DNA from: a virus
Lineage: Duplodnaviria > Caudoviricetes
Direction: 5' to 3' (one strand)
DNA: 64,000 bases
IMG/VR virus record: IMGVR_UViG_3300037067_016568
Coordinates: 1-64,000 of that record
Under the pieces are notes generated by a model, which was not told the origin of the DNA, did not search any database, and saw only the letters and a program-made list of their open reading frames with translations. Position numbers and translations under genes: made by a program. This document shows, piece by piece, positions 3,432-38,781 of this stretch. Within the stretch, counting starts at the first letter, position 1. Every line of letters begins with the position of its first letter.

Positions 3432-3590
3432 TTGTTAAATACGTGGAATTATAACAAGCTCATCATATCCTTCCTGAGCCTTTCTCTTACTTTCTCTTTT
3501 CATTCTGTCTGAAGGGCGTAGAACTACGTATGAGTAGAGAAAGGCTAAGAGAAACTAAAGGAAAAGCTCAGAGATGCCAAAGAGAGGTCA

Positions 3591-6500
3591 CTATTCCGGA
3601 ATGGCCCAAACTGCTACTCCACCACTAACCCTCAGAATATAATCACCATCTGTGGTTGGTGCTCCTGGTATTCCTGAAGACACACCTGTTGCACCAGCTG
3701 CTCCCGAAGCACCAGGTGTGCCTGATGCTCCAGCAATTCCAGATGCTCCATCTAGTCCAGCAGGACCAGTTGCACCAGGATCTCCGCCACCAGGCCCCGT
3801 CGCGCCAGACGCTCCGGGAGGGCCAGAAGCTCCACCAGTCTCTCCTTGCGGGCCAGTTGCACCAGTATATCCTATTTCTCCTGTAGCACCGGGATCTCCT
3901 ATGCCAGAGGCACCGTCGATACCAGTGGCTCCTGTTAGACCGATAGCTCCTGTAGCTCCTGTGGCTCCTGTTGGACCTGTTGCTCCGGTAAATCCAACAG
4001 CTCCGGTGGCACCCTGTATTCCTGTAGCTCCAGACGCACCATCTATACCCGATGCACCTTGAATACCTGCACCGGTAGCACCAGTATATCCAGTAGCACC
4101 GGTGGCCCCTGTCTCACCTTGGGGGCCAGAGGCTCCGCCAGTCGGGCCTTGGGGACCGGTAGATCCTGTCGCACCATCTATTCCTGTTGCACCAGGTTCA
4201 CCTGCACCTGTAGCTCCTATTTCACCTTGTGGGCCTGTAGATCCTGTGGCACCAGTATATCCAGTTGCTCCAGCAGATCCATATAAACCCGTTGCACCTG
4301 TTGCTCCAGCTGTTCCTGTAGCACCGGGAGGACCAGAAGCACCTCCAGTAGGACCTTGAGGACCGGTAGCACCAGTTTCTCCTTGTGGTCCAGAAGCTCC
4401 TCCGGTATCACCTTGAGGGCCTGTAGCACCTGAAGCACCATCTTGTCCTGCTGACCCCGTTGCTCCGCTAGCACCTCTAGGACCTGTTGACCCTGTTGCA
4501 CCAGTAGAACCAGTGTAACCAGTAGCCCCTATAGGGCCACCGCTTGGACCGGTTGCCCCTGTAAGACCCGTTGCACCTTCTATACCAGTGGCACCAGAAG
4601 CACCTCGAATACCCGACGCCCCATCTACCCCCTGGGTACCTGTAGCTCCCGTCGCTCCTGGATCTCCCTGTGGGCCTGAAGCTCCTCCAGGATCACCTTG
4701 AGGACCAGTGGCACCACTAGCTCCATCGGGGCCGGTAGCTCCTGTAGCACCATCTGATCCCACATAGCCAGAGGCACCAACAGGACCAGTAGATCCGGTT
4801 GCACCTGTTTCGCCTTGTGGCCCGGAAGCTCCGCCAGGATCTCCTTGAGGACCTGTAGCACCAGTTGCGCCATCCTCGCCTTGTGGTCCTGTGGCTCCGG
4901 GAGGGCCAGAAGCTCCACCAGTCTCTCCCTGTGGTCCAGTCGCACCATCTAAGCCGGTTGCACCGGTAGCCCCATCTGATCCTATATAACCTGAAGCACC
5001 TGGTAATCCTGTAGCTCCAGCTACACCATCTAAGCCGGTTGCACCGGTAGCCCCATCTGATCCTATATAGCCTGAAGCACCAGCTACACCAGTGGCTCCG
5101 CTAGCACCAGATGCTCCGGGAGGGCCAGAAGCTCCACCAGTCTCTCCTTGCGGTCCGGTTGCGCCAGTATACCCGGTTGCACCAGTAGCCCCGTCAGCTC
5201 CTGTTTCTCCTTGCGTTCCCGTTGCTCCACTAGCTCCATCGACGCCGGTAGCTCCTGGATCGCCTACACCTGAGGCACCTTGAACACCGGTTGCTCCTGT
5301 GGCTCCACTGGCCCCGTCCGGCCCTTGAGGGCCAGTAGCACCAGTATCACCTATGCCACTTGCCCCCTGCACGCCGGTTGCACCGCTAGCTCCACTAGCC
5401 CCATCTAAACCTGTGGCACCAGTATCACCTATTCCAGAAGCGCCTTGAACGCCTGTGGCCCCAGAAGCTCCACTGGCTCCATCTATACCAGTTGCACCGG
5501 TAAGACCTATTTCACCTTGTGGGCCGGTAGATCCTTCAGCACCCGTCGCCCCAGAAGCTCCGCTGGCTCCATCAATACCAGTGGCTCCCGAATCACCTAC
5601 CCCTGAAGCACCCTGAACGCCGGTTGCCCCAGATGCACCTGAGGCTCCATCTATACCAGTGGCACCGGTAGGACCTATTTCTCCCTGAGTACCAGTAGCA
5701 CCAGATGCACCTGAGGCTCCATCTATACCAGTGGCACCCGGATCGCCTACACCTGAGGCACCTTGAACACCGGTTGCTCCTGAAGCTCCGCTGGCTCCGT
5801 CTGGACCCTGAAGGCCAGTAGCGCCAGTGTCGCCTATACCACTTGCTCCCTGCACACCGGTTGCACCTGAAGCCCCTGAAGCTCCAAGTTCTCCTTGCGG
5901 ACCAGAAGAACCCTGGATGCCTGTAGCTCCAACATCACCTTGAACACCAGTAGCTCCTGAGGCTCCGCTAGCTCCTCTAACGCCTGTAGCACCAGTTAGT
6001 CCAGTTGCACCAGTATAACCAGTAGCTCCAGTAGTTCCGGTAGAAGATCCGCTTGCTCCTTGTGGCCCTGTAGCTCCAATATCGCCTTGAATACCGGTGG
6101 CTCCTGAAGCTCCAGAGGCACCAGTAGCACCAATCTCTCCCTGTGGGCCTGTAGCTCCTGATGCTCCGGGAGGGCCAGAAGCTCCACCAGTCTCTCCTTG
6201 CGGGCCAGTTGCACCAGTATACCCCGTCGCACCAGTTGATCCAGTAAAACCAGTGGCTCCTGAGGCACCACTAGCTCCGTAGGGACCAATTAGGCCAGTT
6301 GCGCCAGTTAGACCAGTGGCACCTGAAGCTCCGCTGGCTCCGTCGATACCGGTGGCACCCATCTCCCCGGTATCGCCCTTCAGACCAGTTGCACCAGTTT
6401 CACCGGTGGCACCTGGAATCCCTGTGGCTCCACTAGCACCAGACGCTCCGGGAGGGCCAGAAGCTCCACCAGTCTCTCCTTGAGGGCCGGTAGCTCCTTC

Positions 6501-9500
6501 GATACCTGTTGCACCAGTCTCGCCTGTTGCACCAATTTCGCCCTGCGGGCCTGTCGCACCCGAAGCCCCGCTAGCTCCGTCGATACCTGTAGCTCCTGGA
6601 TCTCCAATTCCACTAGCACCTTGAACACCGGTTGCTCCTGAAGCTCCGCTGGCTCCATCTATACCAATGGCACCAGTGGCACCTACCCCTGAGGCACCCT
6701 GGACACCAGTAGCACCGCTAGCACCGCTAGCACCAGAAATACCCTGTAATCCAGTTGCGCCTGTTAGACCAACGCCGCTGGCACCCTGTACTCCAGTCGC
6801 CCCTGAGGCACCAGAAGCTCCATCGGCACCCGTAGCACCTATACCACTAGCCCCTTGAACGCCGGTAGCGCCGGAAGCACCTGAGGCTCCATCTATACCA
6901 GTTGCGCCGGTAAGACCTGTTTCTCCCTGAGCACCGGTAGCTCCATCTATGCCAGTAGCACCAGACGCTCCGGGAGGGCCAGAAGCTCCACCAGTCTCTC
7001 CTTGAGGGCCGGTCGCACCGCTGGCTCCATCAATACCAGTGGCCCCAACTTCTCCCTGCGGGCCTGTTGAACCTGTAGCACCAATTAAACCTGTGACTCC
7101 TGTGGCACCAGTAAGGCCAATAGCACCCGTAGCACCTCTGGTTCCAGATGCTCCCTGCACACCCGTAGCACCCGAAGCACCACTGGCACCAGCTACACCA
7201 GAAGCTCCACCTGTTTCCCCTTGCGGGCCAGTTGCGCCTTGAACGCCTGTAGCACCTGAAGCACCACTTGCACCTGATATTCCTGAAGCTCCACTAGCAC
7301 CAGATGCTCCGGGAGGGCCGGAAGCTCCACCAGTTGGACCTTGCGGACCAGTGGCACCGGTTGCGCCAGGCTCTCCCTGTGGTCCTGATGCACCGATTCC
7401 GCTAGCGCCCTTTACACCAGTAGCACCTGAAGCACCCTTAGCACCCGTGGCTCCAGTAAGACCAGAAGCACCTATATATCCAGATGCTCCGAATATACCT
7501 GTAGACCCAGTAGCACCAGCAGTACCGGTAGCACCAATTGGGCCACCACTAGGGCCGGTCGCACCCGTAGGTCCTAGTGGCCCAGTTGAGCCGGTGGCAC
7601 CAATTGGACCTGTTGAACCTGTTGCACCAGTAGAACCGGTGAGACCAGAGGCACCCTGAGGGCCTGATGCACCGCCCGTTGGACCTGTGGCTCCTGTATA
7701 TCCTGATGCACCGGTGGCACCCCCAATACCTGTTGCTCCAGTTAGGCCAGTGGCTCCAGTATAACCAGTAGCACCTATTGGACCACCACTGGGACCTGTA
7801 GCACCGCTGGCACCAATTGGGCCTGTTGAGCCAGTAGCACCTATTGGACCACCACTTGGGCCAGTTGCTCCAGTTTCACCTTGTGGGCCTGTTGAACCAT
7901 TTATTCCATTGGTACCTGATGCACCCGTCACACCAGATGCTCCAGTTATGCCAGATGCTCCACGTATTCCTGTTGCACCTGTTGCCCCAGACGGGCCAGA
8001 AGCTCCTCCAGGGTCTCCCTGTGGTCCTGTTGCACCGCTAGCACCATCATCTCCTGCAGCTCCTGTGGCACCTCTAGGACCAGTAGCACCAGGAAACCCA
8101 ATACCAGTAGCCCCCGTTGCTCCAGTCGGTCCTCCAGCCGGGCCGGTAGCACCAGCGGGACCGGTCGAGCCAGTTGCTCCTGTAGCCCCGGATATAGCTT
8201 GTGGAGTCCAAGAAAGATGGCCTGCACCATCAGTTCGCAAGATATAGCCAGTAGCACCATCTGAGCTAGGCCATCGAAGATTGTCTATATAGACATATGT
8301 ACCAGTACCACTGACACCTAACCTCAAATTAGATTCTATAGCGTTAACATTTAAATCAGAACCACCAACTGAATGAATAGTATTGACTTGAAGTCCACCA
8401 ACTTCATCATATTGAAAAACGTTATCATCTATGAGGCGGCCATGTGTCCCGACAAATGGAATCCGACCAGTAACCAACATCGTTCCATCATTTAAAACGA
8501 ATCCTTTACGGGCACCGTCAGTAGTAATTGTAAAATAGAGATCATCATAGGTAAATTCTATTGTCCCTGCTTCTGGTGTAGCCAAAACGCTACCAGTTGT
8601 TAATTTAATAGGAGCAGTCCCAGGAGCTGCTTCACCTGCTGCTAAGTGTATCCTCGCGGTAGGATCATAAATGCCGACTCCTAGCTGTCGACAACTAGCT
8701 GTCGCACTATCGTTAGTTCGCGACCCTTCTAAGATGTTATAATAATTAGTAAGGAGGCGCTGCTCATATTCAGGAGTTCCACCATTGTCAATTAATCTGA
8801 CAGTACCAAGCCAACGATGTCCTTTATAATCACCAGACGTAACATATACTGGCGTCCCATTCAATGTTGCAAGGCCGTCTGCGTCTACTTGTATCCAATA
8901 TCCTGCTGCTAAATCATCGGCGAACACGCCAGACGTGTGGCTAATAATGCAAGCGTAGACAATAGAAGCATTTTTAGCCCTGGTGCCGACGCCATATGGA
9001 TGGCTCGTTTCCCAATCCTCATAGCGAATTACCGACAAAGGGTCATAAGCGACAAATTTAATTTCACCAATAGTTGTATACCAACGCTTGACAGAATCTT
9101 CTATAGCCCACACAAGATCTGTAACTTCAAAAACTTCGATTTTATAATAGGAATATGCGATATTATTGCTAAATGTGAAATATTCTGACCATACATTTAC
9201 ATCGCTAGGCGGATCTATATTCTCTTTTTCATCTAAGAGATCCCAGTTGCTACCATCATTAGAAGCCCATATTCTCCACTTTCGCGGCAGTGATGATGGT
9301 ATGTCGCCTTGAACTATTGGATTACCATATACACTGAGTAGTGATCTTGCTTTCCACGCATACTTGTTAATAGCTTGTTTATTACTGTCTCCAAAGTAAT
9401 ATATAATCCAAACTTCATGGGTCCACGGATCACCAGGTTCCCATCCTGCTCCTCGGCCAACTTCAACTGCCCATCCTAGATTAGATGTGTTATGATTAAA

Positions 9501-10145
9501 TGCCTGCCATCCGAAAAACCTATAGACTCCCGTACCATAGGGAAGCTCAGCATGTGAGCTTTCGGTAACGACATTCGGTGTTGGCACATCGAAGTCGGTC
9601 ATAGCGATAGTGCAAGTGTCCGTTCCTGGATTAGACTTGCCATCAGCAGGCGTAAACTTCCACGGTGCGAATTCTAATTCAAAAGAAGTAGCAGTTCTTA
9701 AGAAGCCGAAAACGTCATATATCCTGTCATCTGTCAGAGTAACACCGTTCATATCAGTAGCGGTGTTTAATGCAGATGGAGGTGTATCTACATAGATAAG
9801 ATCCCATAACTCAGAATATTGATTATAAAGGCGTATCTGATTTGATTGAACAAAATGCCAACTTAGTGTAGTGGAATTAAGGACCTTTAAATTGCCGTCG
9901 ACAACGTTGCCACCAGGACCAGTAGCCCCTGTAGCACCAGTTGCCCCTGTGTATCCCGTCGCGCCTGTAGCTCCCGTATAGCCGGTAGCACCCGTAGCAC
10001 CAGAAAGACCAGTGATACCAGATGCACCTGTCAGGCCAGTTGCACCAGCTACACCAGTTGCTCCCGTTAAACCAGTTGCACCAGGAGCACCTGAGGCACC
10101 ACCACTTGCACCGCCCCATATAGGAAGAACGCTGGTTGTAAACAT
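3591..10145 (-). CDS. collagen-like fibre protein with discoidin/F5-8 type C-like domain
   Basis: ~1500 aa of G-X-Y (GAT/GAS/GPQ) triplets; N-terminal [14 protein letters not shown]...Y.YYKI motif; [13 protein letters not shown] tail-fibre-like motif. Confidence 0.85.
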
Positions 10146-20642: not shown

Positions 20643-23600
20643 TCTTCTGCTGTTAGGATGCCGTCAGTAAATGTTAATTGCCTGGTTGGTGAGCCGCCAC
20701 TAGTATCTGAAACGTAGTATACTTTTGTTCCAGCTAATCCAGATGGTACAGGACCTGTAGCCCCAGTTGCACCAGGGGCACCACTTATTCCTGTGGCTCC
20801 GCTAGATCCGTCTATTCCAGTTGCTCCAGTTGCTCCTGTCTCACCCTGTGGGCCGGATGCACCACCAGGATCACCCTGTAAGCCGGTGGCACCGCTCGCT
20901 CCATCTATACCTGTAGCGCCTGTGGCACCGGTTAATCCTGTTTCACCTTGAGGACCTGTTGAGCCAGTGGCACCAGTTTCTCCTTGTGGACCAGAAGCAC
21001 CGCCGGGGTCGCCCTGCAGACCTGTAGCACCTGAAGCGCCATCTACGCCAGTCGCACCGACTTCTCCCTGTGGACCTGTTGAGCCAGTTGCTCCTGTCTC
21101 ACCTTGAGGACCGGAGGCTCCTCCAGGATCGCCCTGTGGACCTGTAGCACCTGAAGCACCTATATCACCAGTGAGACCTGTTTCTCCCTGAGGGCCGGTA
21201 GCTCCTGAAGCTCCGCTAGCTCCATCAATACCAGTTGCACCTATTTCCCCCTGTGGTCCAGAAGCTCCTCCAGGGTCGCCTTGAGGACCAGTCGCTCCGG
21301 AAGCTCCGCTAGCTCCATCAATACCTGTAGCACCTGAAGCTCCGCTAGCTCCATCAACACCTGTAGCACCTGAAGCTCCGCTAGCCCCATATGGGCCCAT
21401 CAAGCCTGTGGCACCTGTTAAACCGATTTCACCCTGTGGACCAGTAGAGCCGGTCGCTCCGATTTCACCTTGAGGACCAGAAGCACCGCCAGGATCGCCC
21501 TGCAGACCTGTAGCACCTGAAGCGCCATCTACGCCAGTAGAGCCGGTCGCTCCGATTTCGCCTTGAGCTCCACTAGCACCATCTATACCGCTCGCTCCCT
21601 GAGCTCCGTCGACACCACTTGCACCGGCATCGCCCGTTAAACCGATTTCACCCTGCGGACCAGTTGCACCAGTTGCTCCCGGCTCTCCTTGCGGGCCAGA
21701 AGCTCCTCCAGGATCACCCTGTGGGCCTGTAGCACCTGAAGCACCCGCATCACCCTGCGGACCAGTAGAACCGGTTGCTCCTGTTGCTCCTGTCTCACCT
21801 TGAGGGCCAGAAGCTCCTCCAGGATCACCCTGTGGGCCGGTTGCTCCTGTTGCTCCTGTCTCACCTTGAGGACCAGAAGCTCCACCTGGATCGCCTTGAA
21901 GACCGGTGGCACCATCTGCACCAGTAGCACCAGAAGCACCTATTTCACCCTGAGAGCCTGTCGCTCCTATTTCTCCTTGTGCTCCTGAGGCACCTGCTTC
22001 TCCAGCTACACCACTAGCTCCCTGAACACCAGTGGCTCCTGAAGCTCCGCTGGCACCATCTATACCAGTTGCGCCTGCTTCTCCTTGAGGGCCAGAAGCA
22101 CCACCAGTAGGGCCTTGTGGACCCGTAGATCCGGTCGCGCCAGTTTCGCCAGTATCACCAGTGTGTCCGGTGGCACCGGAAGCACCTGGGAAACCAGTAT
22201 AACCTTGATTTCCCTGGGGACCGGTAGCACCTGATGCACCGCTAGCACCATCGACACCGGTAGCTCCTGTTAATCCAATGTCGCCCTGAACACCGGTAGC
22301 TCCTGAAGCTCCAGAAGCACCAGTTAGTCCAGCACCAGTTGCCCCAGTAAGACCGGTAAGTCCTGTTGCACCCGATGCACCAGAATATCCTGTATAACCT
22401 TGTGGACCCGTGGCACCAGTATCACCTATACCAGATGCTCCTTGAACGCCTGTAGCACCTGAGGCTCCACTTGCTCCATCAATACCGGTAGCACCAGTAA
22501 GACCTATTTCGCCTTGTGGACCGGTAGCACCTGAGGCTCCACTGGCTCCATCTATACCAGTTGCACCTGTATCGCCTACGCCACTAGCACCCTGGACACC
22601 TGTTGCTCCTGAAGCTCCGCTGGCACCATCTATACCAGTTGCGCCAGTAGGACCAACAAGGCCAGTTGAGCCAGTTGCACCAATCGGGCCTGTTGAACCA
22701 GTTGCACCTGTTGCACCAGTAGGTCCACCATATGGACCTTGAGGACCAGTAGCCCCAACAGGGCCTGTTGAGCCAGTCGCACCAGTTGCACCAGTACCCT
22801 GCGGACCTGTAGATCCGGTGGCTCCTGCATCTCCAGCAACTCCAGTTGATCCAGTTGCTCCAGTACCGGAGGCACCAGCAACACCGGAGGCACCAGCAAC
22901 ACCGGAGGCACCAGCAATTCCAGCAACACCGGTTGAACCAGTAGCACCAGTTGGACCGCCAGAAGGACCAGTAGCACCGATCGGGCCAGTGATGCTGACA
23001 CCAGTTGCACCTGTTGCTCCGGCAAATCCGGTTGCGCCAGTAGAACCCTTAATACCAGATGCTCCTACTGGGCCGGAAGCCCCACCAGTTCGACCTTGTA
23101 TACCTGTGGCACCTGTTAAACCAGTTGCCCCAGCTACGCCGGTCGCTCCGTCACGACCAATACCAGTCGCACCAGTAGCACCAACAAGACCTGTTGAACC
23201 GCCTACGCCAGTTGAACCTGTCGAACCAGCAGGGCCAGAGGCACCACCAGTGGGGCCGGTCGCTCCGGGTTGACCAGCAGGACCAGAAGCACCGTCGGGA
23301 CCGACACCAGAAGCACCAATAGGACCTTCAGGACCAGTCGAACCAGTTGCCCCAGTTGGACCGCCGCCAGGGCCAGTAGCACCAGCGGCCCCTTCAGCGC
23401 CAGTAGAACCAGTTGCCCCAAGACCACTAGCACCCTGCGGGCCGGTCGAGCCAGTTGCTCCTATCGGACCTCCAGCAGGACCAGTCGCTCCGGTGAGTCC
23501 AATACCTGTAGCACCTGTCGCGCCAGTCGGGCCACCAGAAGGGCCAGTAGCGCCAGGAATGCCAGTAGCACCTGTCGCTCCGATGCCAGTAGCACCTGTT

Positions 23601-30438: not shown

Positions 30439-31110
30439 CTAAGCCGTGGGAGAGTTAAATCTTGCCACGAATGCTGCATAATCATCAGCAGTGTCGATGC
30501 CATATGTAGGCTCATCGGCGATTCCTACCAAAATCTTATGGCCTGTGTAAAGTGCTCGCAGTTGTTCGAGACTCTCCATTATTTCTATTTGACATTGAGG
30601 ATACCGAACAAGCTCTAATAAAAAATCTCGCCGATAAGCATAAATGCCAACGTGCCGATAAAAAGAAGATTTTAAAAGTTCTGGACCGTCCAGCAAGGTG
30701 GGGTAAGGAATAGGATTTCTGCTGAAATATAAAGCTCGATTGTTGTGATCTAAAACAACTTTCACGCAGGCCGGATTGGTAAGTTGTGATAGACTGCAAA
30801 TTGGAGAAGCGATAGTGCTCATCACGTCCGATGGATTCTCTATGAGTAGCTTAACTGCCAAATCGATTAATGAGCCTTTTATTTCAGGTTCATCAGCTTG
30901 CACATTGATGATGATATCAACATCAGCGTGATCTCCGATTTGGCTTGTGGCCATCGCCACTCTTTCCGTCCCGTTCTCTGCCGGGCCGGTCATTACAACA
31001 TTACCACCGAATGATTCTACTTCTTTGCGAATCTCGTCGACAGTAGTAGCAACATATATGCCTTCTGAATAGACGGACTGCATAGCAGATTCATAAGTAT
31101 GTTGTATCGA
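30439..31110 (-). pseudogene. kdsB: CMP-KDO synthetase, 5'-truncated
   Basis: NGTERV, INVQADEP, VKVV....ALYFSR.PIP, HVGIYAY, E.LEQLRAL, GIDT..D; homology extends to IQHTYESA then an in-frame stop, so the N-terminal PAR..S.R...K nucleotide-binding motif is absent. Confidence 0.8.
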
Positions 31111-31125
31111 TGATCAGATAGCGAC

Positions 31126-31428
31126 TCACCACTTTTCTCCACTCAACTTCTGAACTTCCTTATCCTGTTTGACTATAGCATTCCTCAGCTGCCTTGCTAC
31201 AAATGCTTGGTCCTCAGCATCATCCATAGCAGCTATCAGCCAACCAGACTTATACTCTTTACTTCTCTCGATCTCCGGTCGAAGTCGGTTGGAGTTGAAG
31301 AAAGCTACGTAACCAGACTTCCACTCACTAGACTCTGTTGCATACTTAGCAGGAATGCAATCAAAGTGGTTTGAGCATCCGGCTAAAATCACAACAACCA
31401 TCAAACAAACGCCTCGCTTTGTTAACAT
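31126..31428 (-). CDS. putative lipoprotein
   Basis: basic N-terminus, hydrophobic stretch, LAGC lipobox. Confidence 0.6.
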   Translation of the reverse strand: MLTKRGVCLMVVVILAGCSNHFDCIPAKYATESSEWKSGYVAFFNSNRLRPEIERSKEYKSGWLIAAMDDAEDQAFVARQLRNAIVKQDKEVQKLSGEKW

Positions 31429-31640
31429 CTTACACCTCCACCTTTATTACCCAACAATACCATTATATTATATACCAGGTTGGAACACAAGATGAGTTTA
31501 TTGGTAGTTTCGACAGTTACACTAATCCGGCGTCAGCCAAGATGCATAACACGGATTTGCCAGTATTGCGCAAGAGAAGCTTACCCGGCAATCGAGACGA
31601 ACTTAAACGAGCAGGAATAATAATTCTCCCTGCCTGTAAT

Positions 31641-32255
31641 CCTGTAGCTGCTTGGAAACGAACGCTATTCTCCATTTCGCGGCGATCAGCTTGCCCGACG
31701 TCCCGCCCTGTAGTTACCTGGGAACGAACGCTATTCTCCATTTTGATATTTCAAATAATTCCAGCGATTCTACCTGTAGTTACCTGGGAACGAACGCTAT
31801 TCTCCATTAGTCGAGCAACTCTTGGACGAGCCGTTGGTCCTGTAGTTACCTGGGAACGAACGCTATTCTCCGTTTTATTCCAAGGCTGCTGATTGTCAAT
31901 GGTCCTGTAGTTACCTGGGAACGAACGCTATTCTCCATTTCGGTCTTCTACGGCATGCCTGTAGTTACCTGGGAACGAACGCTATTCTCCATTCCAATAG
32001 GCGGCGCGACCGGCGATGCCAACCCTGTAGTTACCTGGGAACGAACGCTATTCTCCATTCTATTCCGACCACTCCAGATGCAAGTTCTCCTGTAGTTACC
32101 TGGGAACGAACGCTATTCTCCATTGATGCCGACCATTCGCTTTCGCAAGAGAACCTGTAGTTACCTGGGAACGAACGCTATTCTCCATTGCCGCTCATCA
32201 GGGATGATGTTTTTGGGTACCTGTAGTTACCTGGGAACGAACGCTATTCTCCATT
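31641..32255 (-). CRISPR. CRISPR array 1: 10 repeats (36 bp), 9 spacers (18-30 bp)
   Basis: plus-strand repeat CCTGTAGTTACCTGGGAACGAACGCTATTCTCCATT at 31641 (degenerate), 31707, 31773, 31839, 31904, 31958, 32024, 32089, 32154, 32220. Confidence 0.95.
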
Positions 32256-32261
32256 ACGCTA

Positions 32262-32807
32262 TTAGGTGGTTCCCGGCACCTTATCTTTCTGCACAGCCTC
32301 GGTAGCGATGGCGTATTGCAGCTTAACATAACTCGAAGCTAATATCAGAAGCGTGTTGAGGTTAACGGTGATTTTCTCCTTGGGGCACTCTAAGTGCACC
32401 AGTATCTCATCATTAACCTTTCGGCCTTTTATCTCAACCGCCCCAATTTCATTATTCAAAACCTTGCCGTTGATCCAAGCGGTGACACCATGACCGCTTG
32501 GATCAGCCCAATCGTCCGACAGGCCAGCAGCCGCCATGAAAGCCAAAAGGCTTTTGCCCTCTGGCGATCGTGCCAAACTAGAAGACATTCCAGAGGTCTT
32601 TGGAAGCCTTATTGTTATATCTCGCTCCACAGGCGTTTCGTCGTCTTCGAATTTGACAACCCACACTTCTGACGGCGGATTCGATGTATGACAAAGACGA
32701 ACTAACGACACAAGTTGTGCCTTGCCTTCGAGTTCTAGATGTTCACTGGGAGTCTGTTGCTTCTTGTAGACGGAGCACCAATCTCCACGCCTCAAAACTG
32801 ATTTCAC
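32262..32807 (-). CDS. hypothetical protein inside CRISPR locus
   Basis: 181-aa ORF ending within the array 1 leader. Confidence 0.55.
   Translation of the reverse strand: MKSVLRRGDWCSVYKKQQTPSEHLELEGKAQLVSLVRLCHTSNPPSEVWVVKFEDDETPVERDITIRLPKTSGMSSSLARSPEGKSLLAFMAAAGLSDDWADPSGHGVTAWINGKVLNNEIGAVEIKGRKVNDEILVHLECPKEKITVNLNTLLILASSYVKLQYAIATEAVQKDKVPGTT
32264..32281 (-). promoter_or_regulatory. conserved leader hairpin of array 1
   Basis: AGGTG-CCGGGAAC-CACCT on minus strand; identical to the one beside array 2. Confidence 0.65.
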
Positions 32808-32894
32808 TTTACTAGTCCCCCCTGTAGTCCTGTCCCTGAATCTCGCAATTAAATCTCTGCGCTGTGATACCTTTTTATAGCTCGACGGATGTGG

Positions 32895-33440
32895 TTAATT
32901 AGCTTCGAGTTCGGCAATCCGTGTTTGAAGTTCGGCAATCCGTGTTTGAAGTTCGGCAATTCGTGCTCGAAGCGCCTCATTCTCCGCTTCCAGGGTCTTA
33001 ATACGCGCCAAAAGCTGGTCCTGGACCGCCTGCATTGACGCCTTGATTTTGCGAGCTTCCTTATATGGATCAGCTGGCTTGGCCCGGCGACGACTACGTG
33101 GGGCGTCGGATTTCGTTTTGGCGAGCATGCCGTTATACATGTCGCGAAGCTTACCATTCTTCCATTGATATTCTTCCGGATAGTGCTTGAGCATCATCCG
33201 TAATTCGGAGAAGGTCAAGCAAAGGTCGATGACATACTCATCCAAGATGGCCAAGAGTTTGTTGTTGTCCAAGATCTCATTGTCGGCCCGAAAATCTGGA
33301 TCTTCATAGACGCTGTTCAGCAGAGTTGTCCGCCGATAGGCGTTGTGGCCGCTTGACTGCTGTAGCTTCCGGACTTGCTGTAAGAGCTTCTTGTACTGCT
33401 TTTCGCAGCGTGGCTGGGTTGGTGTGGTCGACCTCATCAA
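32895..33440 (-). CDS. hypothetical protein with C-terminal coiled coil
   Basis: GGAGA RBS; heptad IAELQTR repeats encoded by a 21-bp tandem repeat at 32909-32960. Confidence 0.6.
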   Translation of the reverse strand: MMRSTTPTQPRCEKQYKKLLQQVRKLQQSSGHNAYRRTTLLNSVYEDPDFRADNEILDNNKLLAILDEYVIDLCLTFSELRMMLKHYPEEYQWKNGKLRDMYNGMLAKTKSDAPRSRRRAKPADPYKEARKIKASMQAVQDQLLARIKTLEAENEALRARIAELQTRIAELQTRIAELEAN

Positions 33441-33568
33441 TAGTTCTCCTTAGTCTTTTATGAAAAGCTGATAGTTGCGCACATTGACGACAACAAAATT
33501 TCTTGTTGCCGTTCAATGGCGTCTTACATATTGGACATTCCCCCTGTCCTGTAGTCCTGGCCTGTAGT

Positions 33569-33806
33569 CCTGTAGTTACCTGGGAACGAACGCTATTCTC
33601 CATTTTCGGCATCGGTGATCTCCCTGTAGTCCTGTAGTTACCTGGGAACGAACGCTATTCTCCATTTGCGGTTCTGTTCAGCGAGGAGGCTGTGGCCCTG
33701 TAGTCCTGTAGTTACCTGGGAACGAACGCTATTCTCTATTGCGACGTGCCATTACCGAATGCGATCTATGCCTGTAGTTACCTGGGAACAAACGTAATCC
33801 CACATT
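33569..33806 (-). CRISPR. CRISPR array 2: 4 repeats, 3 spacers
   Basis: repeats at 33569, 33631, 33705, 33771 (last one divergent in its distal half); extra CCTGTAGT octamers before three of the repeats. Confidence 0.9.
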
Positions 33807-33811
33807 TCGCT

Positions 33812-33835
33812 TTTAGGTGGTTCCCGGCACCTAAA
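33812..33835 (-). promoter_or_regulatory. conserved leader hairpin of array 2
   Basis: plus strand TTTAGGTG-GTTCCCGG-CACCTAAA. Confidence 0.65.
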
Positions 33836-33844
33836 TATGTCCCC

Positions 33845-34147
33845 TTAGTCCGGCAGCCTGAAAATATTAACCCATCTTCCATAGATTTTTGTTTTGCGCT
33901 TCACCAATTCGCCCGGCGTTCTGGCTAACGCCGCCATCACGCGATCTGATGTTTTCGTACATTCGTGCGGCCATCCTAGACGTTCAGCTATTAGATGTAA
34001 CAGCCCCTCATCACCAAACATGACAGCTGGGTTGTCTGTTTCTCTCAACACTTCAACGGCAGCATCGCATACTCGCATTATAGCTATGTATTCTGTAGTC
34101 GTATCCCAAATGGCGGTGTCAATTGATGAAAAAGAATATAAATGCAA
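33845..34147 (-). CDS. hypothetical protein inside CRISPR locus
   Basis: small ORF; helix-helix-helix-hairpin pattern might be winged helix (weak). Confidence 0.4.
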   Translation of the reverse strand: MHLYSFSSIDTAIWDTTTEYIAIMRVCDAAVEVLRETDNPAVMFGDEGLLHLIAERLGWPHECTKTSDRVMAALARTPGELVKRKTKIYGRWVNIFRLPD

Positions 34148-34171
34148 AATATTTCTGCTGCAAATGTCAAG

Positions 34172-34384
34172 CTAAATAATACAAGTGATAGAAACGTCGA
34201 ATGCGATTGATATAGTCAAGCAGATCCAAAAAGCCAGCATGCTACAAGCAATTGGCGTAAGGGGACATAACGTTTCAGCTAGTGCAAATGGCTTTATCTG
34301 GAATAGCACATACCAAATATTGCCGATAATCGGAGCAACAAATGGCGGAATAAGCAACCAGATTAATTTGTCTATCTTGCTCAT
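34172..34384 (-). CDS. small membrane protein
   Basis: two hydrophobic segments. Confidence 0.45.
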   Translation of the reverse strand: MSKIDKLIWLLIPPFVAPIIGNIWYVLFQIKPFALAETLCPLTPIACSMLAFWICLTISIAFDVSITCII

Positions 34385-34457
34385 CTATATCACTATTATA
34401 CATCACTAAGAAGAAGCTGTCAAGCTCCCATCTGGCTACCCCGCATTCCGCCATGGA

Positions 34458-35600
34458 TTATCTGTTGATTGTTACGTCGATATCGATCTTATTACATGCC
34501 CGTTGGATCAACGATTGCATTTGTCGCCAATCCCATCGAGTCGTTTCAGTGTTGCCAATGCGTCCTGCATATTCTAAATAGTAATCCGCAGGAGGAGCAA
34601 AGATAACAAGATGACCGATGCCATTTGTTGCCAGTAATCTTGTCACATCATTGGCAAGGTGGGTGCTCCAGGTTTTGATGAAATCACGCCACCGCCGCTC
34701 ATATTTCGCCTTGTCTGCAGCCGAAATATATTTCCTGGTCTTCTTACTCTCTTGAATATCCAAGGTATTTCGCGTGTGTTCAACATCCTCGCCGCGACGA
34801 AGGCGGAATATGGTTTTACCATTGAATCGGAAGGAGAATGGGCGACGTTGCGCCGCTAACAGAAATGCCGTCTTATTCTTGTCAAGCGGTACTTTCACCT
34901 TGGGAATAGAATGGCAAGGATAAGCAATTAATCTACCGTCGCGTTCCTTCAAGTCGAGTCCCTTTAAATCCCATTCACCCGCTGCAATTTTCCACAGCAT
35001 ATCGCGGACAGAATGTAGCCTATAGCTTTTGGTCTTAATGATGAATGTCATCAAACCATAGCCGTCGACGTTGACCTCAAGCTTCCAATCTTCATTCTTG
35101 CTCTGCGGAACGATGATTCGGCAGTCACGTTTATGAAACGGAATGCTACTTCGTTGAGACGACTGTAGGAGACCTCCTCGGCCCAAAAGGACTGTTATCC
35201 AGCGAGGATAAGCCGACTTATACCCATGTTTCTGCAGTATTCTCAACGCTTTCTCGGTTGCTAGCTTACAGTGCTTGTTCATCGAGGGATATGTAGCAGA
35301 CATGATTTCGTCAAGCTGCTGAGCCATTTCGGTACTGCATGGATCGACAGGGCACCGCGTACGGGGGCCAACGCGAGTCTCAGGCTCGTAAAGCCAGCGG
35401 CGATCTTGTTCTGCCCATTCACGAACGAGAAGATGATTGCCAGCTTCAAAATGAATTCGCAACCATGCTGACATAAAATCGTTGACGATTCTCTGAATAT
35501 CAGAAGCAAGAGTGCCGATGTACTTTTTGTGTGACTTATAGTCATCGTCACCGCCAAGTAAACTGATTCGCTTGTTCTTAACAACTCGAAAGTCGGCCAT
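34458..35600 (-). CDS. Cas12f/TnpB-like protein B, nuclease-dead and C-terminally truncated
   Basis: paralog of 35735..37096 (NDF.S.W...H.EAG, CPV.P.S..MA, RW...L.G.G, VP.S.N..WKL, LWKI..GE, WDW..MQ); RuvC-I site reads TAFLLAA, RuvC-II reads HLVIFAP. Confidence 0.75.
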   Translation of the reverse strand: MADFRVVKNKRISLLGGDDDYKSHKKYIGTLASDIQRIVNDFMSAWLRIHFEAGNHLLVREWAEQDRRWLYEPETRVGPRTRCPVDPCSTEMAQQLDEIMSATYPSMNKHCKLATEKALRILQKHGYKSAYPRWITVLLGRGGLLQSSQRSSIPFHKRDCRIIVPQSKNEDWKLEVNVDGYGLMTFIIKTKSYRLHSVRDMLWKIAAGEWDLKGLDLKERDGRLIAYPCHSIPKVKVPLDKNKTAFLLAAQRRPFSFRFNGKTIFRLRRGEDVEHTRNTLDIQESKKTRKYISAADKAKYERRWRDFIKTWSTHLANDVTRLLATNGIGHLVIFAPPADYYLEYAGRIGNTETTRWDWRQMQSLIQRACNKIDIDVTINR

Positions 35601-35613
35601 ATCGTCCTCTGTA

Positions 35614-35698
35614 GGTTAAAAAAGGTAACTCTGGCGAGAGCTAACACGGTACGGAATGCCCGCAGCTATTCTCGCCTTCGAGACGTACAGGACGCCTC
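35614..35698 (-). ncRNA. putative tracrRNA, copy 1
   Basis: two hairpins, split anti-repeat (CCUGU loop + AGUUACCU), U6 tail; TGCTATAAG extended -10 about 20 nt upstream (35717-35725). Confidence 0.75.
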
Positions 35699-35734
35699 AA
35701 TTAGTGATTCTGCAAACTTATAGCACAAAAACAA

Positions 35735-37096
35735 TTATCGATTAACTTCTTTTTTACGGGGCTTACCTCCTTGCCTAGCGATTACTTTCATCCCGGCTGC
35801 TGCTCCAACCGCTTCCAACTGCTGCTGCATGTGGTACCAATCCCAGGCCGTCGATTCATTACGGCCAATTTTTCCGACATTAGAGAGATAACGAGTATCT
35901 CGCCATTTACCGGTTGGCTGATATGTTACCAGTTGACCAACGCCCGCTTTAACACAGCGACCTATAACCTCTGCGGCCCAAGTGTTGTTGAAGGTTTTGG
36001 TCTGATTACGCCAATTGCGTTCCGACTTTCGCCGCCAGTTATGGACTTTACGACCATGGTTTTTACGCGCACTAGATGCATATTTGTACGATTCGCTTTT
36101 ACCGAACCGTTGAAGCGTCAAAGAACGACGAGCATGTTTAATGTGCCTGCAGCTTCGCAGTTTCATATGTGTCTTACCATCAATGCGAAGCATCACGCCA
36201 TGATATCGACCACCTGATACGACAGCCGTTTTCTTGCTATCAGAGGGGGCAACCACACCGGGCATCAAATAGCAGATATCCGCATACCACTTGCCGGTGT
36301 TTTCACACTTAATGATCTGCGAAGTGCCGAAAATGTATTCGCCAGACGTAATTTTCCACAACACCTTGCGAATAGGTGCTAAATGACGCCCGCCAGTCCG
36401 AAGTTTGAAAACCATGGGGCGTAGAGTTCTTTGGCCATCTACTTTTTCGTAACGAACAATCAACTTCCAAGGGTCATTATTACTTTTAGGGACGACGAAG
36501 TTGCTGTTAGCGGTGTAGAATGGAACCGGTTGTGGTCTGGAAAATTGTGAATATTCTCCATATCCACATAGGATCATAAACCAGCGCTTATATTTAGACT
36601 TCGTGGCCGGTGTGGAGAGGAGCGTACTACTAAGCCGCCTAGAAACAATACCAATCGGTTTAGTCCCTAAATTGCAGTGTTGAGTAGTCAGGCGTTTATA
36701 GATCTCATTCGCCATCTTGTTAGAATATGGCTGAACGGGGCATTTTGCACGTGGAGGGATTTTCACGTCGAAAGAGGGGAGTAACTCCTTCTTTCCTTTT
36801 CGCTTCTGAGCTTTCTGAGCCTTGTCCAATTCGCCGTATTTCTGTGCCCATTCCTTATCTTCTTGTATCCATTTACGAAGAGCAGTGGGAGAGCCAGCTT
36901 CAAGATGCAAGCTAAACCACTGACTATGAAAATCATTTGCGATTTGCTGCATTTGAAGCGATATCTTGGCGAGACGTTCTTTTTCCTCTGCAAAGCCGTC
37001 GTCAATACCACATAGCTGGACGCGAATAATCTTCGTAAGTCCTTCTGGCTTCTTTTTACGTGGTTTCTTTTCTGCCGGTTTCTTCAATTTACTCAC
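35735..37096 (-). CDS. Cas12f-like protein A, nuclease-dead and C-terminally truncated
   Basis: KITSGEY.FGTSQII.....KWY..I.Y, KYASSARKNHGRK, WDWYHMQQQL...AAGMKVI align by eye with AsCas12f1-type RILSGEY..SASQII.....KWYLNISY, KYAGGARGGHGRD, WTYYDLQQKI...EEAGIKVI; GIDLG is replaced by VVSGG, MEDL by TYQP; no Zn finger or RuvC-III. Confidence 0.8.
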   Translation of the reverse strand: MSKLKKPAEKKPRKKKPEGLTKIIRVQLCGIDDGFAEEKERLAKISLQMQQIANDFHSQWFSLHLEAGSPTALRKWIQEDKEWAQKYGELDKAQKAQKRKGKKELLPSFDVKIPPRAKCPVQPYSNKMANEIYKRLTTQHCNLGTKPIGIVSRRLSSTLLSTPATKSKYKRWFMILCGYGEYSQFSRPQPVPFYTANSNFVVPKSNNDPWKLIVRYEKVDGQRTLRPMVFKLRTGGRHLAPIRKVLWKITSGEYIFGTSQIIKCENTGKWYADICYLMPGVVAPSDSKKTAVVSGGRYHGVMLRIDGKTHMKLRSCRHIKHARRSLTLQRFGKSESYKYASSARKNHGRKVHNWRRKSERNWRNQTKTFNNTWAAEVIGRCVKAGVGQLVTYQPTGKWRDTRYLSNVGKIGRNESTAWDWYHMQQQLEAVGAAAGMKVIARQGGKPRKKEVNR

Positions 37097-37143
37097 TATA
37101 GTCTCCTACACAAAATAAGCGGCTTTATTCAGGGGCCTGTAGT

Positions 37144-37552
37144 CCTGTAGTCACCTGGGAACGAACGCTATTCAACATTCACATCGGGCTTGTAGTCAAG
37201 CCTGTAGTTACCTGGGAACGAACGCTATTCAACATTATTGAGACAACTTAATCAATGATGTCCTGTAGTCACCTGGGAACGAACGCTATTCAACATTTAA
37301 AACTGTCCCGTCCCGTTTTGATATAGCCTGTAGTCACCTGGGAACGAACGCTATTCAACATTTCAGAAGCTGTGAAAGCTTCATCTTGGCACGCCTGTAG
37401 TTACCTGGGAACGAACGCTATTCAACATTCCTCGGCGATTTCGTCGGCTGTAATTGGCACCTGTAGTCACCTGGGAACGAACGCTATTCAACATTTCCCT
37501 TCGTCGTGATAATCAGCCTGTAGTCACCTGGGAACGAACGCTATTCAACATT
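37144..37552 (-). CRISPR. CRISPR array 3: 7 repeats (variant CCTGTAGT(C/T)ACCTGGGAACGAACGCTATTCAACATT), 6 spacers (21-31 bp)
   Basis: repeats at 37144, 37201, 37262, 37327, 37394, 37460, 37517. Confidence 0.95.
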
Positions 37553-37564
37553 ACGCTAACGGGT

Positions 37565-37648
37565 GGTTAAAAAAGTAACTCTGGCGAGAGCTAACACGGT
37601 ACGGAATGCCCGCAGCTATTCTCGCCTTCGAGACGTACAGGACGCCTC
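37565..37648 (-). ncRNA. putative tracrRNA, copy 2
   Basis: identical to 35614..35698 apart from a 1-nt deletion near the U-tract; ends 12 nt upstream of the first repeat of array 3. Confidence 0.75.
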
Positions 37649-37735
37649 TATTTGGTGATCATAGTTTATCTGGACTGTTTTAGCATCACATTAATAGGTA
37701 GTTAACTTCGATTAATCTCTTGTGAAGCCTGTAGT

Positions 37736-37914
37736 CCTGTAGTTACCTGGGAACGAACGCTATTCTCCATTTCGTCTCCATTTACATTTTGAACGAACGC
37801 TATTCTCCATTGACGCTAAGGGCCACGTTATCGGAGCACCTGTAGTTACCTGGGAACGAACGCTATTCTCCATTCGGCTGTTATGAAAAGATATTGCAGA
37901 TCCTCCTGTAGTTA
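37736..37914 (-). CRISPR. CRISPR array 4: 2 full and 2 partial repeats, 3 spacers
   Basis: full repeats at 37736 and 37839; partial 37791-37811; handle-only CCTGTAGTTA at 37905-37914. Confidence 0.85.
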
Positions 37915-37995
37915 TTCACGAAGAAGTGTCATCTCGGATTTCTTTGATTTTTATTCATATGTGCTCTGATATAATCCTTTAGCACGCTGGTAGTT

Positions 37996-38054
37996 TTTTA
38001 TAGCACGACGCTGGTATTAATTAATTAAATAGCCATATTTGTCGTGCTATAAAA
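37996..38054. promoter_or_regulatory. 14-bp inverted repeat, probably divergent extended -10 promoters
   Basis: TTTTATAGCACGAC (37996-38009) / GTCGTGCTATAAAA (38041-38054) around an AT-rich core, between the CRISPR locus and a plus-strand operon. Confidence 0.6.
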
Positions 38055-38070
38055 GGGTAGAGGTTTAAAA

Positions 38071-38781
38071 ATGAAGCTAAGCAAACGGTACATCTACCCA
38101 CCACGTCCAAAAGACGCAATCCCTTTTAGTCAGATTGGGATGTATAATCAATACGGGTGGAAAGCCCAAACGAAATTCAACGATAAACGCACCGAAATCG
38201 CAATCGATGCAAACACTGTCGAGATATTTAACCGCCACAAAGGACAACACAAGACATTCGTGTTGTCCGATTCTCTGCGAGATGAGATCATCGTTGTTTG
38301 TCGTGACATTTTCGGATTGGATGTATCACAATGGTCATACCTCGATGGGGGGTTGCTTGATGGAAAGAGCAAGCACATCGAAGGGATGGTCGTCATCTGG
38401 GACATCCTAGTCCGTGAGGGCGATTGGCTCGTCGGCAGCACTTATCAAGAGCGATATGAATGGCTACTAACCAAAGCGGAGGCCGCTGGCGGCGAACCGT
38501 TCATCGTCATCATAAATGGTCAAGAGTTTGACTTCGGCATCAGACTCAGCGAACACATTTTTATGCCGCGATTCTGGGAAGACTTCGAATCTTGCTGGCA
38601 ATTTACGCAAGAAGTCAACAAAGCTGCCGGATGGAGCATGGAGAATGGTGGTGAGCCCGTATTAGAAGGGATTGTTATGAAAGATCCTCAGGGAGTCTTA
38701 AAACCTGATAACGGGAAAGAAAAGAATAATACTGAATGGTCTGCTAGAAGCCGAGTTAGAACTGGCCGTCATCATTTCTGA
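38071..38781 (+). CDS. ATP-dependent ligase-like nucleotidyltransferase domain protein
   Basis: QTKFND (motif I K), YLDGGL, IWDIL, EGIVMK motifs. Confidence 0.65.
   Translation: MKLSKRYIYPPRPKDAIPFSQIGMYNQYGWKAQTKFNDKRTEIAIDANTVEIFNRHKGQHKTFVLSDSLRDEIIVVCRDIFGLDVSQWSYLDGGLLDGKSKHIEGMVVIWDILVREGDWLVGSTYQERYEWLLTKAEAAGGEPFIVIINGQEFDFGIRLSEHIFMPRFWEDFESCWQFTQEVNKAAGWSMENGGEPVLEGIVMKDPQGVLKPDNGKEKNNTEWSARSRVRTGRHHF

What the first reader, a model, noticed from the sequence alone, without database searches (positions are those of the whole stretch)
34458..37096. Possible heterodimeric Cas12f: two diverged subunits in tandem
Known: Cas12f acts as an asymmetric homodimer on one guide. Seen: paralog A keeps the basic YASSARKNHGRK segment and a Lys-rich N-terminal insertion, while paralog B has deleted both. 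Inference: the duplicates may have specialised into the two non-equivalent protomer positions. Alternatively each uses its own tracr copy and repeat variant (array 3 versus arrays 1, 2, 4).
Basis: inference. Interest (0 to 1): 0.75.

Follow-up and report, generated by a model that had tools for sequence, protein, structure and literature searches.

The report
Paired dead mini-Cas12f genes in phage
A huge phage carries two adjacent, long-diverged copies of a cutting-dead miniature Cas12f next to CRISPR arrays. One copy has lost a nucleic-acid-gripping loop that every other relative keeps, which fits the untested idea that the two proteins now pair up as unequal halves of one RNA-guided DNA binder.

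Summary
Two tandem minus-strand genes, A (35735-37096, 453 aa) and B (34458-35600, 380 aa), are paralogs (30% identity, E 2e-61). Both are Cas12f homologs by profile (AsCas12f E 1e-37) and by fold. Both are nuclease-dead: the RuvC-I Asp is Ser in A and Leu in B, the RuvC-II Glu is Tyr in A and Phe in B, and the zinc-finger/RuvC-III tail is missing. They belong to a large family of dead Cas12f-like proteins (at least 185 clusters) that a protein-atlas look-up suggests is mostly viral.

The A-then-B pair, with a tracr-like RNA directly upstream of B, recurs in all five loci with DNA. Both genes are under strong purifying selection (dN/dS 0.06-0.10). The tree shows one duplication, and single-copy relatives sit outside it.

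B's missing basic segment is a true loss. Only the B clade among 161 family rows has it deleted. It aligns to the AsCas12f RuvC hairpin tip, including R280, which contacts guide RNA and target strand only in protomer 1. A's Lys-rich parts are gains, not losses in B.

The rival idea of a private tracr and repeat type for each paralog is poorly supported.

The heterodimer is plausible (about 0.5) but unproven. No multimer model or interaction data were obtainable.

The same scan noted this stretch before, on this genome only.

The parts
35735..37096 (-). Paralog A: nuclease-dead, C-terminally truncated Cas12f-like protein (453 aa). It keeps the RuvC helical-hairpin tip (residues 335-350) and carries a Lys-rich N-terminal tail.
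   Evidence: ORF. PDB profile hits to Cas12f. AF2 model pLDDT 75.7 with Foldseek best hit AsCas12f 8j12_A, E 1e-17. S294 at the RuvC-I Asp column and Y392 at the RuvC-II Glu column.
34458..35600 (-). Paralog B: nuclease-dead, truncated Cas12f-like protein (380 aa). It lacks the hairpin tip and the Lys-rich tail and is less basic than A.
   Evidence: ORF. BLASTP to A. AF2 model pLDDT 91.8, pTM 0.72. Foldseek hits to AsCas12f and dCas12f. Hairpin-tip deletion found only in the B clade. Net charge +23 against +57 for A.
35619..35707 (-). tracr-like RNA copy 1, in the A-B intergenic region, ending about 18 nt before B's start codon.
   Evidence: Alignment. nhmmer E 2e-30. Folds into two hairpins plus a single-stranded A-G-U-U-A-C-C and a U-tract, z -3.1.
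37569..37656 (-). tracr-like RNA copy 2, upstream of array 3 and gene A. Nearly identical to copy 1.
37144..37552 (-). CRISPR array 3: seven repeats, with the variant 5' repeat end A-A-T-G-T-T. It lies directly upstream of gene A.
37736..37868 (-). CRISPR mini-array 4: two full repeats plus a repeat fragment.
33569..33800 (-). CRISPR mini-array 2: three repeats plus a degenerate one.
31641..32255 (-). CRISPR array 1: nine full repeats plus a degenerate terminal one. Spacers are 18-30 nt.
32895..33612 (-). Conserved accessory module: a zinc-ribbon ORF (33304-33612) overlapping a 181-aa coiled-coil protein (32895-33440). It is found downstream of the dCas12f gene(s) in every related locus.
   Evidence: tblastn hits in L001, L002, L003, L004 and the distant L016. 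Pfam shows only coiled-coil noise.

Best explanation
A and B descend from one tandem duplication of a 'tracr + dead-Cas12f' module in a lineage of huge phages. The ancestral protein, like every structurally studied Cas12f and dCas12f, most likely worked as an asymmetric homodimer on one tracrRNA:crRNA guide.

After the duplication the two non-equivalent positions were split between the genes. A became more basic and keeps the RuvC helical-hairpin tip. I propose it takes the position of protomer 1, which grips the guide scaffold, the PAM and the guide-target duplex. B lost the hairpin tip and is less basic, but it keeps the invariant dimer-helix residues. I propose it takes protomer 2, which holds the partner through REC-REC contacts and touches the scaffold.

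The A-B-RNA complex would bind DNA matching the spacers without cutting it. The likely role is to block or redirect transcription of a target that was not identified, possibly together with the conserved zinc-ribbon/coiled-coil accessory protein.

Shown here: paralogy, Cas12f homology and fold, loss of the catalytic residues and of the zinc-finger/RuvC-III tail, conserved pairing and gene order, strong purifying selection on both genes, the unique loss in B, and a shared tracr.

Inferred: the heterodimer itself, which paralog sits where, and DNA binding without cleavage.
For: Paralogy: 30% identity, E 2e-61.

Cas12f homology: profile against AsCas12f E 1e-37, covering residues 77-361 plus the N-terminus. 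Foldseek best hits are AsCas12f and dCas12f for both models.

Dead active site: none of the 150 best family representatives has Asp at the RuvC-I column. The proteins end where the AsCas12f zinc finger begins.

Conserved pair: A then B in the window, L001, L002, L005 and L006. Matching contig lengths for three more pairs.

One duplication: A clade 100, B clade 100, A+B 97, with single-copy L003/L004 outside. The alternative 'A + singles' is rejected, AU p 0.02.

Both genes are constrained: dN/dS 0.06-0.10. B is as conserved as A everywhere except the hairpin-tip window, where identity is 0.48 against 0.75.

The loss is unique. Among 161 family rows only the six B-clade proteins have the segment deleted. 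The K-G-H-G core is nearly invariant in a 50-sequence family alignment.

Function of the homologous segment in AsCas12f: the RuvC alpha1-alpha2 hairpin of protomer A sits in the sgRNA stem 2 groove, and R280 contacts the target strand. The whole C-terminal half of protomer B is disordered (bioRxiv 10.1101/2023.07.03.547593).

The dimer helix is kept in both. The family-invariant Trp (W60 in A, W46 in B) aligns with AsCas12f W43, a dimer-interface residue. N54, W60 and H64 are at least 98% conserved across the family.

The same tracr serves both genes, with near-identical copies.

Charge asymmetry: A +42 to +60, B +15 to +36.

Nuclease-dead Cas12f is already known to work as an asymmetric dimer (PMC12259091).
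Against: There is no direct evidence of an A-B contact.

The duplicated unit is a complete module (tracr plus gene). That is also what two independent effectors would look like.

B's RuvC-like half is not relaxed. It is more conserved than A's in the WED-C/RuvC-I windows, although the protomer-2 C-terminal half of AsCas12f is idle. B's C-terminal half must therefore do something the simple 'second protomer' picture does not explain.

Both paralogs keep the dimer-helix invariants, so A-A and B-B dimers remain possible.

No fused A-B protein was found among longer proteins (weak evidence).

The assignment of A to position 1 rests on one mapped segment and on charge.
Confidence: 0.5

Rival explanations
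1. Two independent effectors. A and B each form homodimers that load the same tracrRNA:crRNA pool but differ in output, for example PAM preference, timing in infection, or partner protein (one may block transcription while the other recruits the accessory protein).
For: Each gene has its own tracr copy directly upstream, as single-copy relatives do. Both keep the dimer-helix invariants. B has its own strongly conserved clade-specific motifs and a fully constrained RuvC-like half. Duplicated dCas12f loci that act separately exist in Flagellimonas (PMC13472631).
Against: B lacks a segment that 155 of 161 family rows and the active Cas12f nucleases keep, and whose AsCas12f counterpart contacts guide RNA and target strand in protomer 1. 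A B-B dimer would have no protomer able to make that contact. A and B were never found apart in the clade. Repeats and tracr do not split into two classes.
Confidence: 0.3
2. B is an auxiliary or regulatory subunit rather than half of the effector. It could be a tracrRNA/crRNA-binding chaperone, a processing scaffold, or a damper that titrates guides or A monomers.
For: B lost the target-strand-contacting tip but keeps the RNA-facing fold and the dimer helix. B is translated from just after the tracr terminator.
Against: Strict 1:1 synteny and equal constraint fit a stoichiometric partner just as well. No precedent for such a role was found in the Cas12f literature searched.
Confidence: 0.13
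3. B is a decaying duplicate without function.
For: It is shorter, has lost a conserved motif, and sits on a longer stem branch (0.61 against 0.40).
Against: dN/dS is 0.06-0.10. Mean within-clade identity is 0.68, higher than A's 0.65. The frame is intact in all loci. The model is high-confidence, pLDDT 91.8.
Confidence: 0.02

Closest known systems
AsCas12f1 / type V-F Cas12f nucleases (PDB 7wju, 8dzj, 8j12; Un1Cas12f1 7c7l, 7l48)
   Same: Same fold and domain order (WED-REC-WED-RuvC). The best profile hit (E 1e-37) and best Foldseek hit are to these. Also shared: the RuvC hairpin-tip motif in A, the dimer-helix Trp, CRISPR arrays, and a tracrRNA whose 3' end pairs with the 3' end of the repeat.
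   Different: The catalytic Asp and Glu are replaced. The zinc-finger/TNB domain and RuvC-III are missing. There are two diverged genes instead of one. The host is a huge phage. No Cas1 was found in the 184-kb record.
dCas12f of Bacteroidota (dCas12f-sigmaE RNA-guided transcription; PMC13472631, PMC12259091; PDB 9n9c, 9n9m)
   Same: A naturally nuclease-dead, C-terminally truncated Cas12f that acts as an asymmetric dimer and binds DNA without cutting.
   Different: Those proteins are homodimers of one gene. They use a single chimeric guide without tracrRNA, are mostly not CRISPR-linked, and are encoded with an ECF sigma factor. Here there are CRISPR arrays plus a tracr, no sigma factor among the neighbours, a different accessory protein, and a mostly viral family. 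PDB profile E-values favour AsCas12f (1e-37) over dCas12f (1e-15).
CRISPR-associated dCas12f cluster noted by Hoffmann et al. (PMC13472631, Extended Data Fig. 1a,b)
   Same: Dead Cas12f homologs next to CRISPR arrays, with a proposed repressor role.
   Different: That cluster is described from bacterial genomes (a Chitinophagaceae example targets an efflux promoter). No paired genes are mentioned. Whether it overlaps the present viral family could not be checked, because no sequences are given in the text read.
TldR (TnpB-like nuclease-dead repressors; bioRxiv 10.1101/2023.11.30.569447)
   Same: An independent case of RuvC inactivation plus C-terminal truncation turning an RNA-guided nuclease into a DNA binder.
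   Different: TldRs derive from TnpB, use omega-RNA-like guides and have no CRISPR arrays. No paired subunits are reported for them.

Membership tests
Cas12f (type V-F effector nuclease) | TnpB/Cas12f fold with WED, REC and RuvC domains | tested here: met
   Profile against AsCas12f E 1e-37. Foldseek E 1e-17 for A and 8e-15 for B.
Cas12f (type V-F effector nuclease) | Intact RuvC catalytic triad (Asp, Glu, Asp) | tested here: not met
   The column of AsCas12f D225 holds Ser in A and Leu in B. The column of E324 holds Tyr in A and Phe in B. The RuvC-III region is absent.
Cas12f (type V-F effector nuclease) | C-terminal zinc-finger / target-nucleic-acid-binding domain | tested here: not met
   The alignment ends at AsCas12f residue 361 of 422. 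A has 12 further residues and B has about 5, with no Cys pairs. There is no Pfam PF07282 hit.
Cas12f (type V-F effector nuclease) | CRISPR array plus tracrRNA with an anti-repeat | tested here: met
   21 repeats in four arrays. A conserved 85-nt RNA has a 3' A-G-U-y-A-C-C that co-varies with the repeat's G-G-U-r-A-C-U across loci.
Cas12f (type V-F effector nuclease) | Two protomers on one guide RNA | not testable with these tools
   Only single-chain prediction was available. The dimer-helix Trp is conserved.
dCas12f-sigmaE system | RuvC inactivation with C-terminal truncation | tested here: met
dCas12f-sigmaE system | Operonic ECF sigma factor (rpoE) with a C-terminal extension | tested here: not met
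   Pfam scan of eight neighbouring ORFs (30439-38781) found no sigma-70 family domain.
dCas12f-sigmaE system | Single chimeric guide RNA, no tracrRNA, usually no CRISPR array | tested here: not met
   Arrays and a separate tracr-like RNA are present.
TldR | TnpB-derived, with an omega-RNA guide encoded at the gene's 3' end and no CRISPR array | tested here: not met
   The closest structures are Cas12f rather than TnpB. CRISPR arrays are present.

The most novel reading that the evidence does not exclude
A and B form an obligate heterodimer. That would be the first natural class 2 type V effector whose two non-equivalent protomer positions are encoded by separate, specialised genes. It would be a step from a single-protein effector towards a multi-subunit one, in a phage-borne, nuclease-dead CRISPR system.
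Probability: 0.45. Interest if true: 0.8.

Novelty: new variant of a known kind. Interest (0 to 1): 0.62.

Why it matters
Every Cas12f-type effector in the structural papers read here is described as an asymmetric dimer of a single gene product. One sequence must therefore serve two different jobs.

A natural pair that has split those jobs would show which parts of the protein each position really needs. It would be a clean example of a homodimer evolving into a heterodimer by complementary change. It would also give engineers a way to modify or fuse cargo to only one protomer of a miniature editor or regulator.

The pair also marks out a large family of dead Cas12f-like proteins with CRISPR arrays and a conserved accessory protein. 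A protein-atlas look-up suggests it is mostly viral. I found no description of this family in the papers I searched. Its targets and purpose in phage biology are unknown.

Tried and rejected
- Pfam, NCBIfam and PHROGs scans of A and B gave no hits.
- An Rfam scan of 31-39 kb gave nothing.
Contexts came from the search for related loci instead.
- Broad family alignments were too diverse for the search for related loci.
- A genome-contig scan with the B alignment found no relative.
- A search for fused A-B proteins among longer proteins found none.
- Spacer targets: none in the phage's own 184-kb record, none in GenBank phages for arrays 1, 3 and 4 (one chance-level Lactococcus hit, E 0.07), and none in IMG/VR for two spacers.
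- Positions 59 and 65 of the dimer helix differ consistently between the A and B clades. They are variable across the family, so I draw no inference from them.
- Mapping of the AsCas12f PAM-contact residues onto A and B was abandoned, because the alignment in that part of REC is unreliable.
- The slightly better TM-score of the B model to AsCas12f chain B (0.52 against 0.45-0.48) is too small to interpret.
- Literature searches found no natural Cas12f heterodimer.
Full report
**What is there**

The window's minus strand carries two adjacent ORFs at exactly the coordinates given. A lies at 35735-37096 (453 aa). B lies at 34458-35600 (380 aa). They are paralogs with 30% identity over 410 columns, E 2e-61.

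Four CRISPR arrays surround them. They hold 21 copies of a 30-nt repeat core, where none are expected by chance. Read on the minus strand, the repeat is 36 nt and ends in G-G-U-A-A-C-U-A-C-A-G-G. Spacers are irregular, 18-31 nt.

The record is an IMG/VR virus contig of 184,768 nt, estimated about 51% complete. It holds only these two family members and no Cas1.

**What the proteins are**

Pfam, NCBIfam and PHROGs give nothing. A profile of A, B and their orthologs hits solved Cas12f structures at E 1e-13. A profile of 50 wider family members hits AsCas12f at E 1e-37, over residues 77-361 plus the N-terminal strand and helix.

AlphaFold2 models were made for A (pLDDT 75.7) and B (pLDDT 91.8, pTM 0.72). 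Both find AsCas12f, other Cas12f structures and the Bacteroidota dCas12f as best Foldseek matches.

The alignments put Ser (A) and Leu (B) at the column of AsCas12f D225. They put Tyr (A) and Phe (B) at the column of E324. Both proteins stop a few residues after the strand that precedes the AsCas12f zinc finger, so the zinc-finger/TNB domain and RuvC-III are absent. These are Cas12f homologs, but nuclease-dead and truncated.

An exhaustive profile search finds 400 cluster representatives at E below 1e-3, and 185 below 1e-30. Most are 400-480 aa. Not one of the best 150 has Asp at the RuvC-I column. An atlas look-up lists the nearest clusters as mostly viral.

This is therefore a large family of dead Cas12f-like proteins, apparently mostly viral. 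It is separate from the sigma-factor-linked dCas12f of Bacteroidota (PMC13472631).

**The pair is old, conserved and always together**

Orthologs fall into two clean groups. The A group has the N-terminal K-K-P-R-K-K-K-P tail and the S-Y-K-Y-A-S-S-A-R-K-x-H-G-R-K segment. The B group has neither.

In all five loci for which DNA was obtained (window, L001, L002, L005, L006), A is followed by B on the same strand. Three further A/B protein pairs come from contigs of identical length: 167,790, 68,068 and 41,105 nt.

A maximum-likelihood tree gives the A clade 100, the B clade 100 and A+B together 97. Single-copy genes from L003 and L004 are the next branch out. Forcing those single copies to group with A is rejected, AU p 0.02. 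A more distant locus, L016, also has one copy.

So there was one duplication, and the single-copy relatives predate it. They do not count against the heterodimer idea.

Both genes are under strong purifying selection, with dN/dS 0.06-0.10 for pairs whose dS is not saturated. B is on average as conserved as A, 0.68 against 0.65 mean pairwise identity.

**What differs between A and B, and in which direction**

The basic segment is a loss in B. The single-copy outgroups have it. The 50-sequence family consensus has it, with a nearly invariant K-G-H-G core. Among 161 family rows, only the six B-clade proteins have it deleted, with 4-9 residues in place of 16-17.

The N-terminal Lys tail is absent from outgroups, so it is a gain of the A clade. 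The long internal Lys insert is confined to the window's A and its closest relative.

A is consistently more basic than B. Net charge is +42 to +60 for A and +15 to +36 for B. The single-copy proteins lie between, at +36 to +55.

**What the lost segment does in a solved relative**

The segment aligns residue for residue with AsCas12f Y270-R283. The AsCas12f structure paper reports three relevant points (bioRxiv 10.1101/2023.07.03.547593):
- The RuvC alpha1-alpha2 helical hairpin of protomer A inserts into the groove of sgRNA stem 2.
- R280, in the G-H-G-R turn, contacts the target-strand backbone.
- The whole C-terminal half of protomer B is disordered.

The models agree. B has a tight alpha1-alpha2 hairpin (helices 270-288 and 294-325). 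A has an extra, low-confidence stretch between its helices.

B has thus lost a contact that only protomer 1 makes. This is the main positive argument for division of labour.

**The dimer surface is kept by both**

The family-invariant Trp (W60 in A, W46 in B) aligns with AsCas12f W43, where the W43A mutation abolishes spontaneous dimerisation. N54, W60 and H64 are at least 98% conserved in the family and are present in both paralogs.

By established knowledge of duplicated homomers, paralogs that keep the ancestral interface cross-dimerise by default. That makes an A-B dimer the expected starting state. It does not exclude A-A or B-B dimers.

An RNA of about 85 nt is almost invariant across loci whose proteins are only about 50% identical. 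It has two hairpins, then a single-stranded A-G-U-U-A-C-C and a U-tract (folding z -3.1).

Its 3' A-G-U-y-A-C-C changes together with the repeat's G-G-U-r-A-C-U between the window and the other phages. This supports tracr:repeat pairing.

A copy sits directly upstream of every family gene examined, including the single-copy ones. The duplicated unit was therefore tracr plus gene. The window's two copies differ at one position near the U-tract.

Repeat variants differ mainly in the 5' part of the repeat, outside the paired 13-nt end. They do not form two classes in L002. The idea that each paralog has a private tracr and repeat type is therefore poorly supported.

**Weighing the readings**

The heterodimer reading explains four things: the strict co-occurrence, the unique loss in B of a protomer-1-only contact, the shared tracr, and the charge asymmetry.

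Against it:
- There is no interaction evidence.
- The duplicated unit is a complete module, which suits two independent effectors as well.
- B's RuvC-like half is not relaxed. It is more conserved than A's in the 270-319 windows.
- No fused A-B protein was found.

I put the heterodimer at about 0.5, two independent homodimeric effectors at about 0.3, and an auxiliary or regulatory B at about 0.13. A decaying B is essentially excluded.

**Function of the system**

With no catalytic residues, the complex should bind DNA without cutting it, as dCas12f, Cas12m and TldR do. No protospacer was found in the phage's own record, in GenBank phages, or (for two spacers) in IMG/VR. The target is unknown.

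A zinc-ribbon ORF overlapping a 181-aa coiled-coil protein lies downstream of the gene(s) in every locus, even the distant L016. It is a candidate partner.

**Comparison with what is known**

Nuclease-dead, truncated Cas12f homologs acting as asymmetric homodimers are published (PMC13472631, PMC12259091). That work also mentions a CRISPR-linked dCas12f cluster in bacteria. I found no report of a natural two-gene Cas12f-type effector.

I therefore class this as a new variant of a known kind. Other notes from this scan cover the same stretch of the same genome. None were found on other DNA.

**Limits**

The tree used the quick search.

Noticed in passing
window 32895-33612 (minus); L001 13689-14280; L002 13167-13908; L003 2212-2827; L004 10639-11302; L016 6439-7018: A zinc-ribbon ORF overlaps the start of a 181-aa coiled-coil protein by about 137 nt in another frame. 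The same arrangement follows the dCas12f gene(s) in every related locus, including a member at 26% identity. It may be a programmed frameshift or a dual-coding stretch, and it is a candidate partner of the effector.
   Followed up: partly
L001 11478-11567 (same in L005 1947-2036): A third, slightly diverged tracr copy in the A-B spacer region runs straight into the repeat's 3' end (G-A-C-T-A-C-A-G-G) and a spacer-like sequence, without a U-tract. It looks like a natural single-guide RNA.
   Followed up: no
own genome about 123,687-124,054 (outside the window): A fifth array with the same repeat lies about 86 kb away from the effector genes.
   Followed up: no
window 33539-33704, 37114-37143, 37706-37735: The octamer A-C-T-A-C-A-G-G (the repeat's 3' end) is repeated at the start of every array-2 spacer and after the last repeat of arrays 3 and 4. 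Spacer lengths are irregular, 18-31 nt.
   Followed up: no
window 3500-10100 and 20900-23400: Long runs of 9/18/27/36-nt periodic repeats on the minus strand encode Gly-X-Y collagen-like proteins. They are probably fibre or tail proteins of the phage.
   Followed up: no
protein P0008 (A ortholog, 466 aa): It carries a 32-residue Cys-rich insertion just after the dead RuvC-I strand that no other ortholog has.
   Followed up: no
window 30439-31083 (minus): A cytidylyltransferase (PF02348, E 8.5e-32) is encoded next to array 1. This is a sugar-nucleotide enzyme in a phage genome.
   Followed up: no
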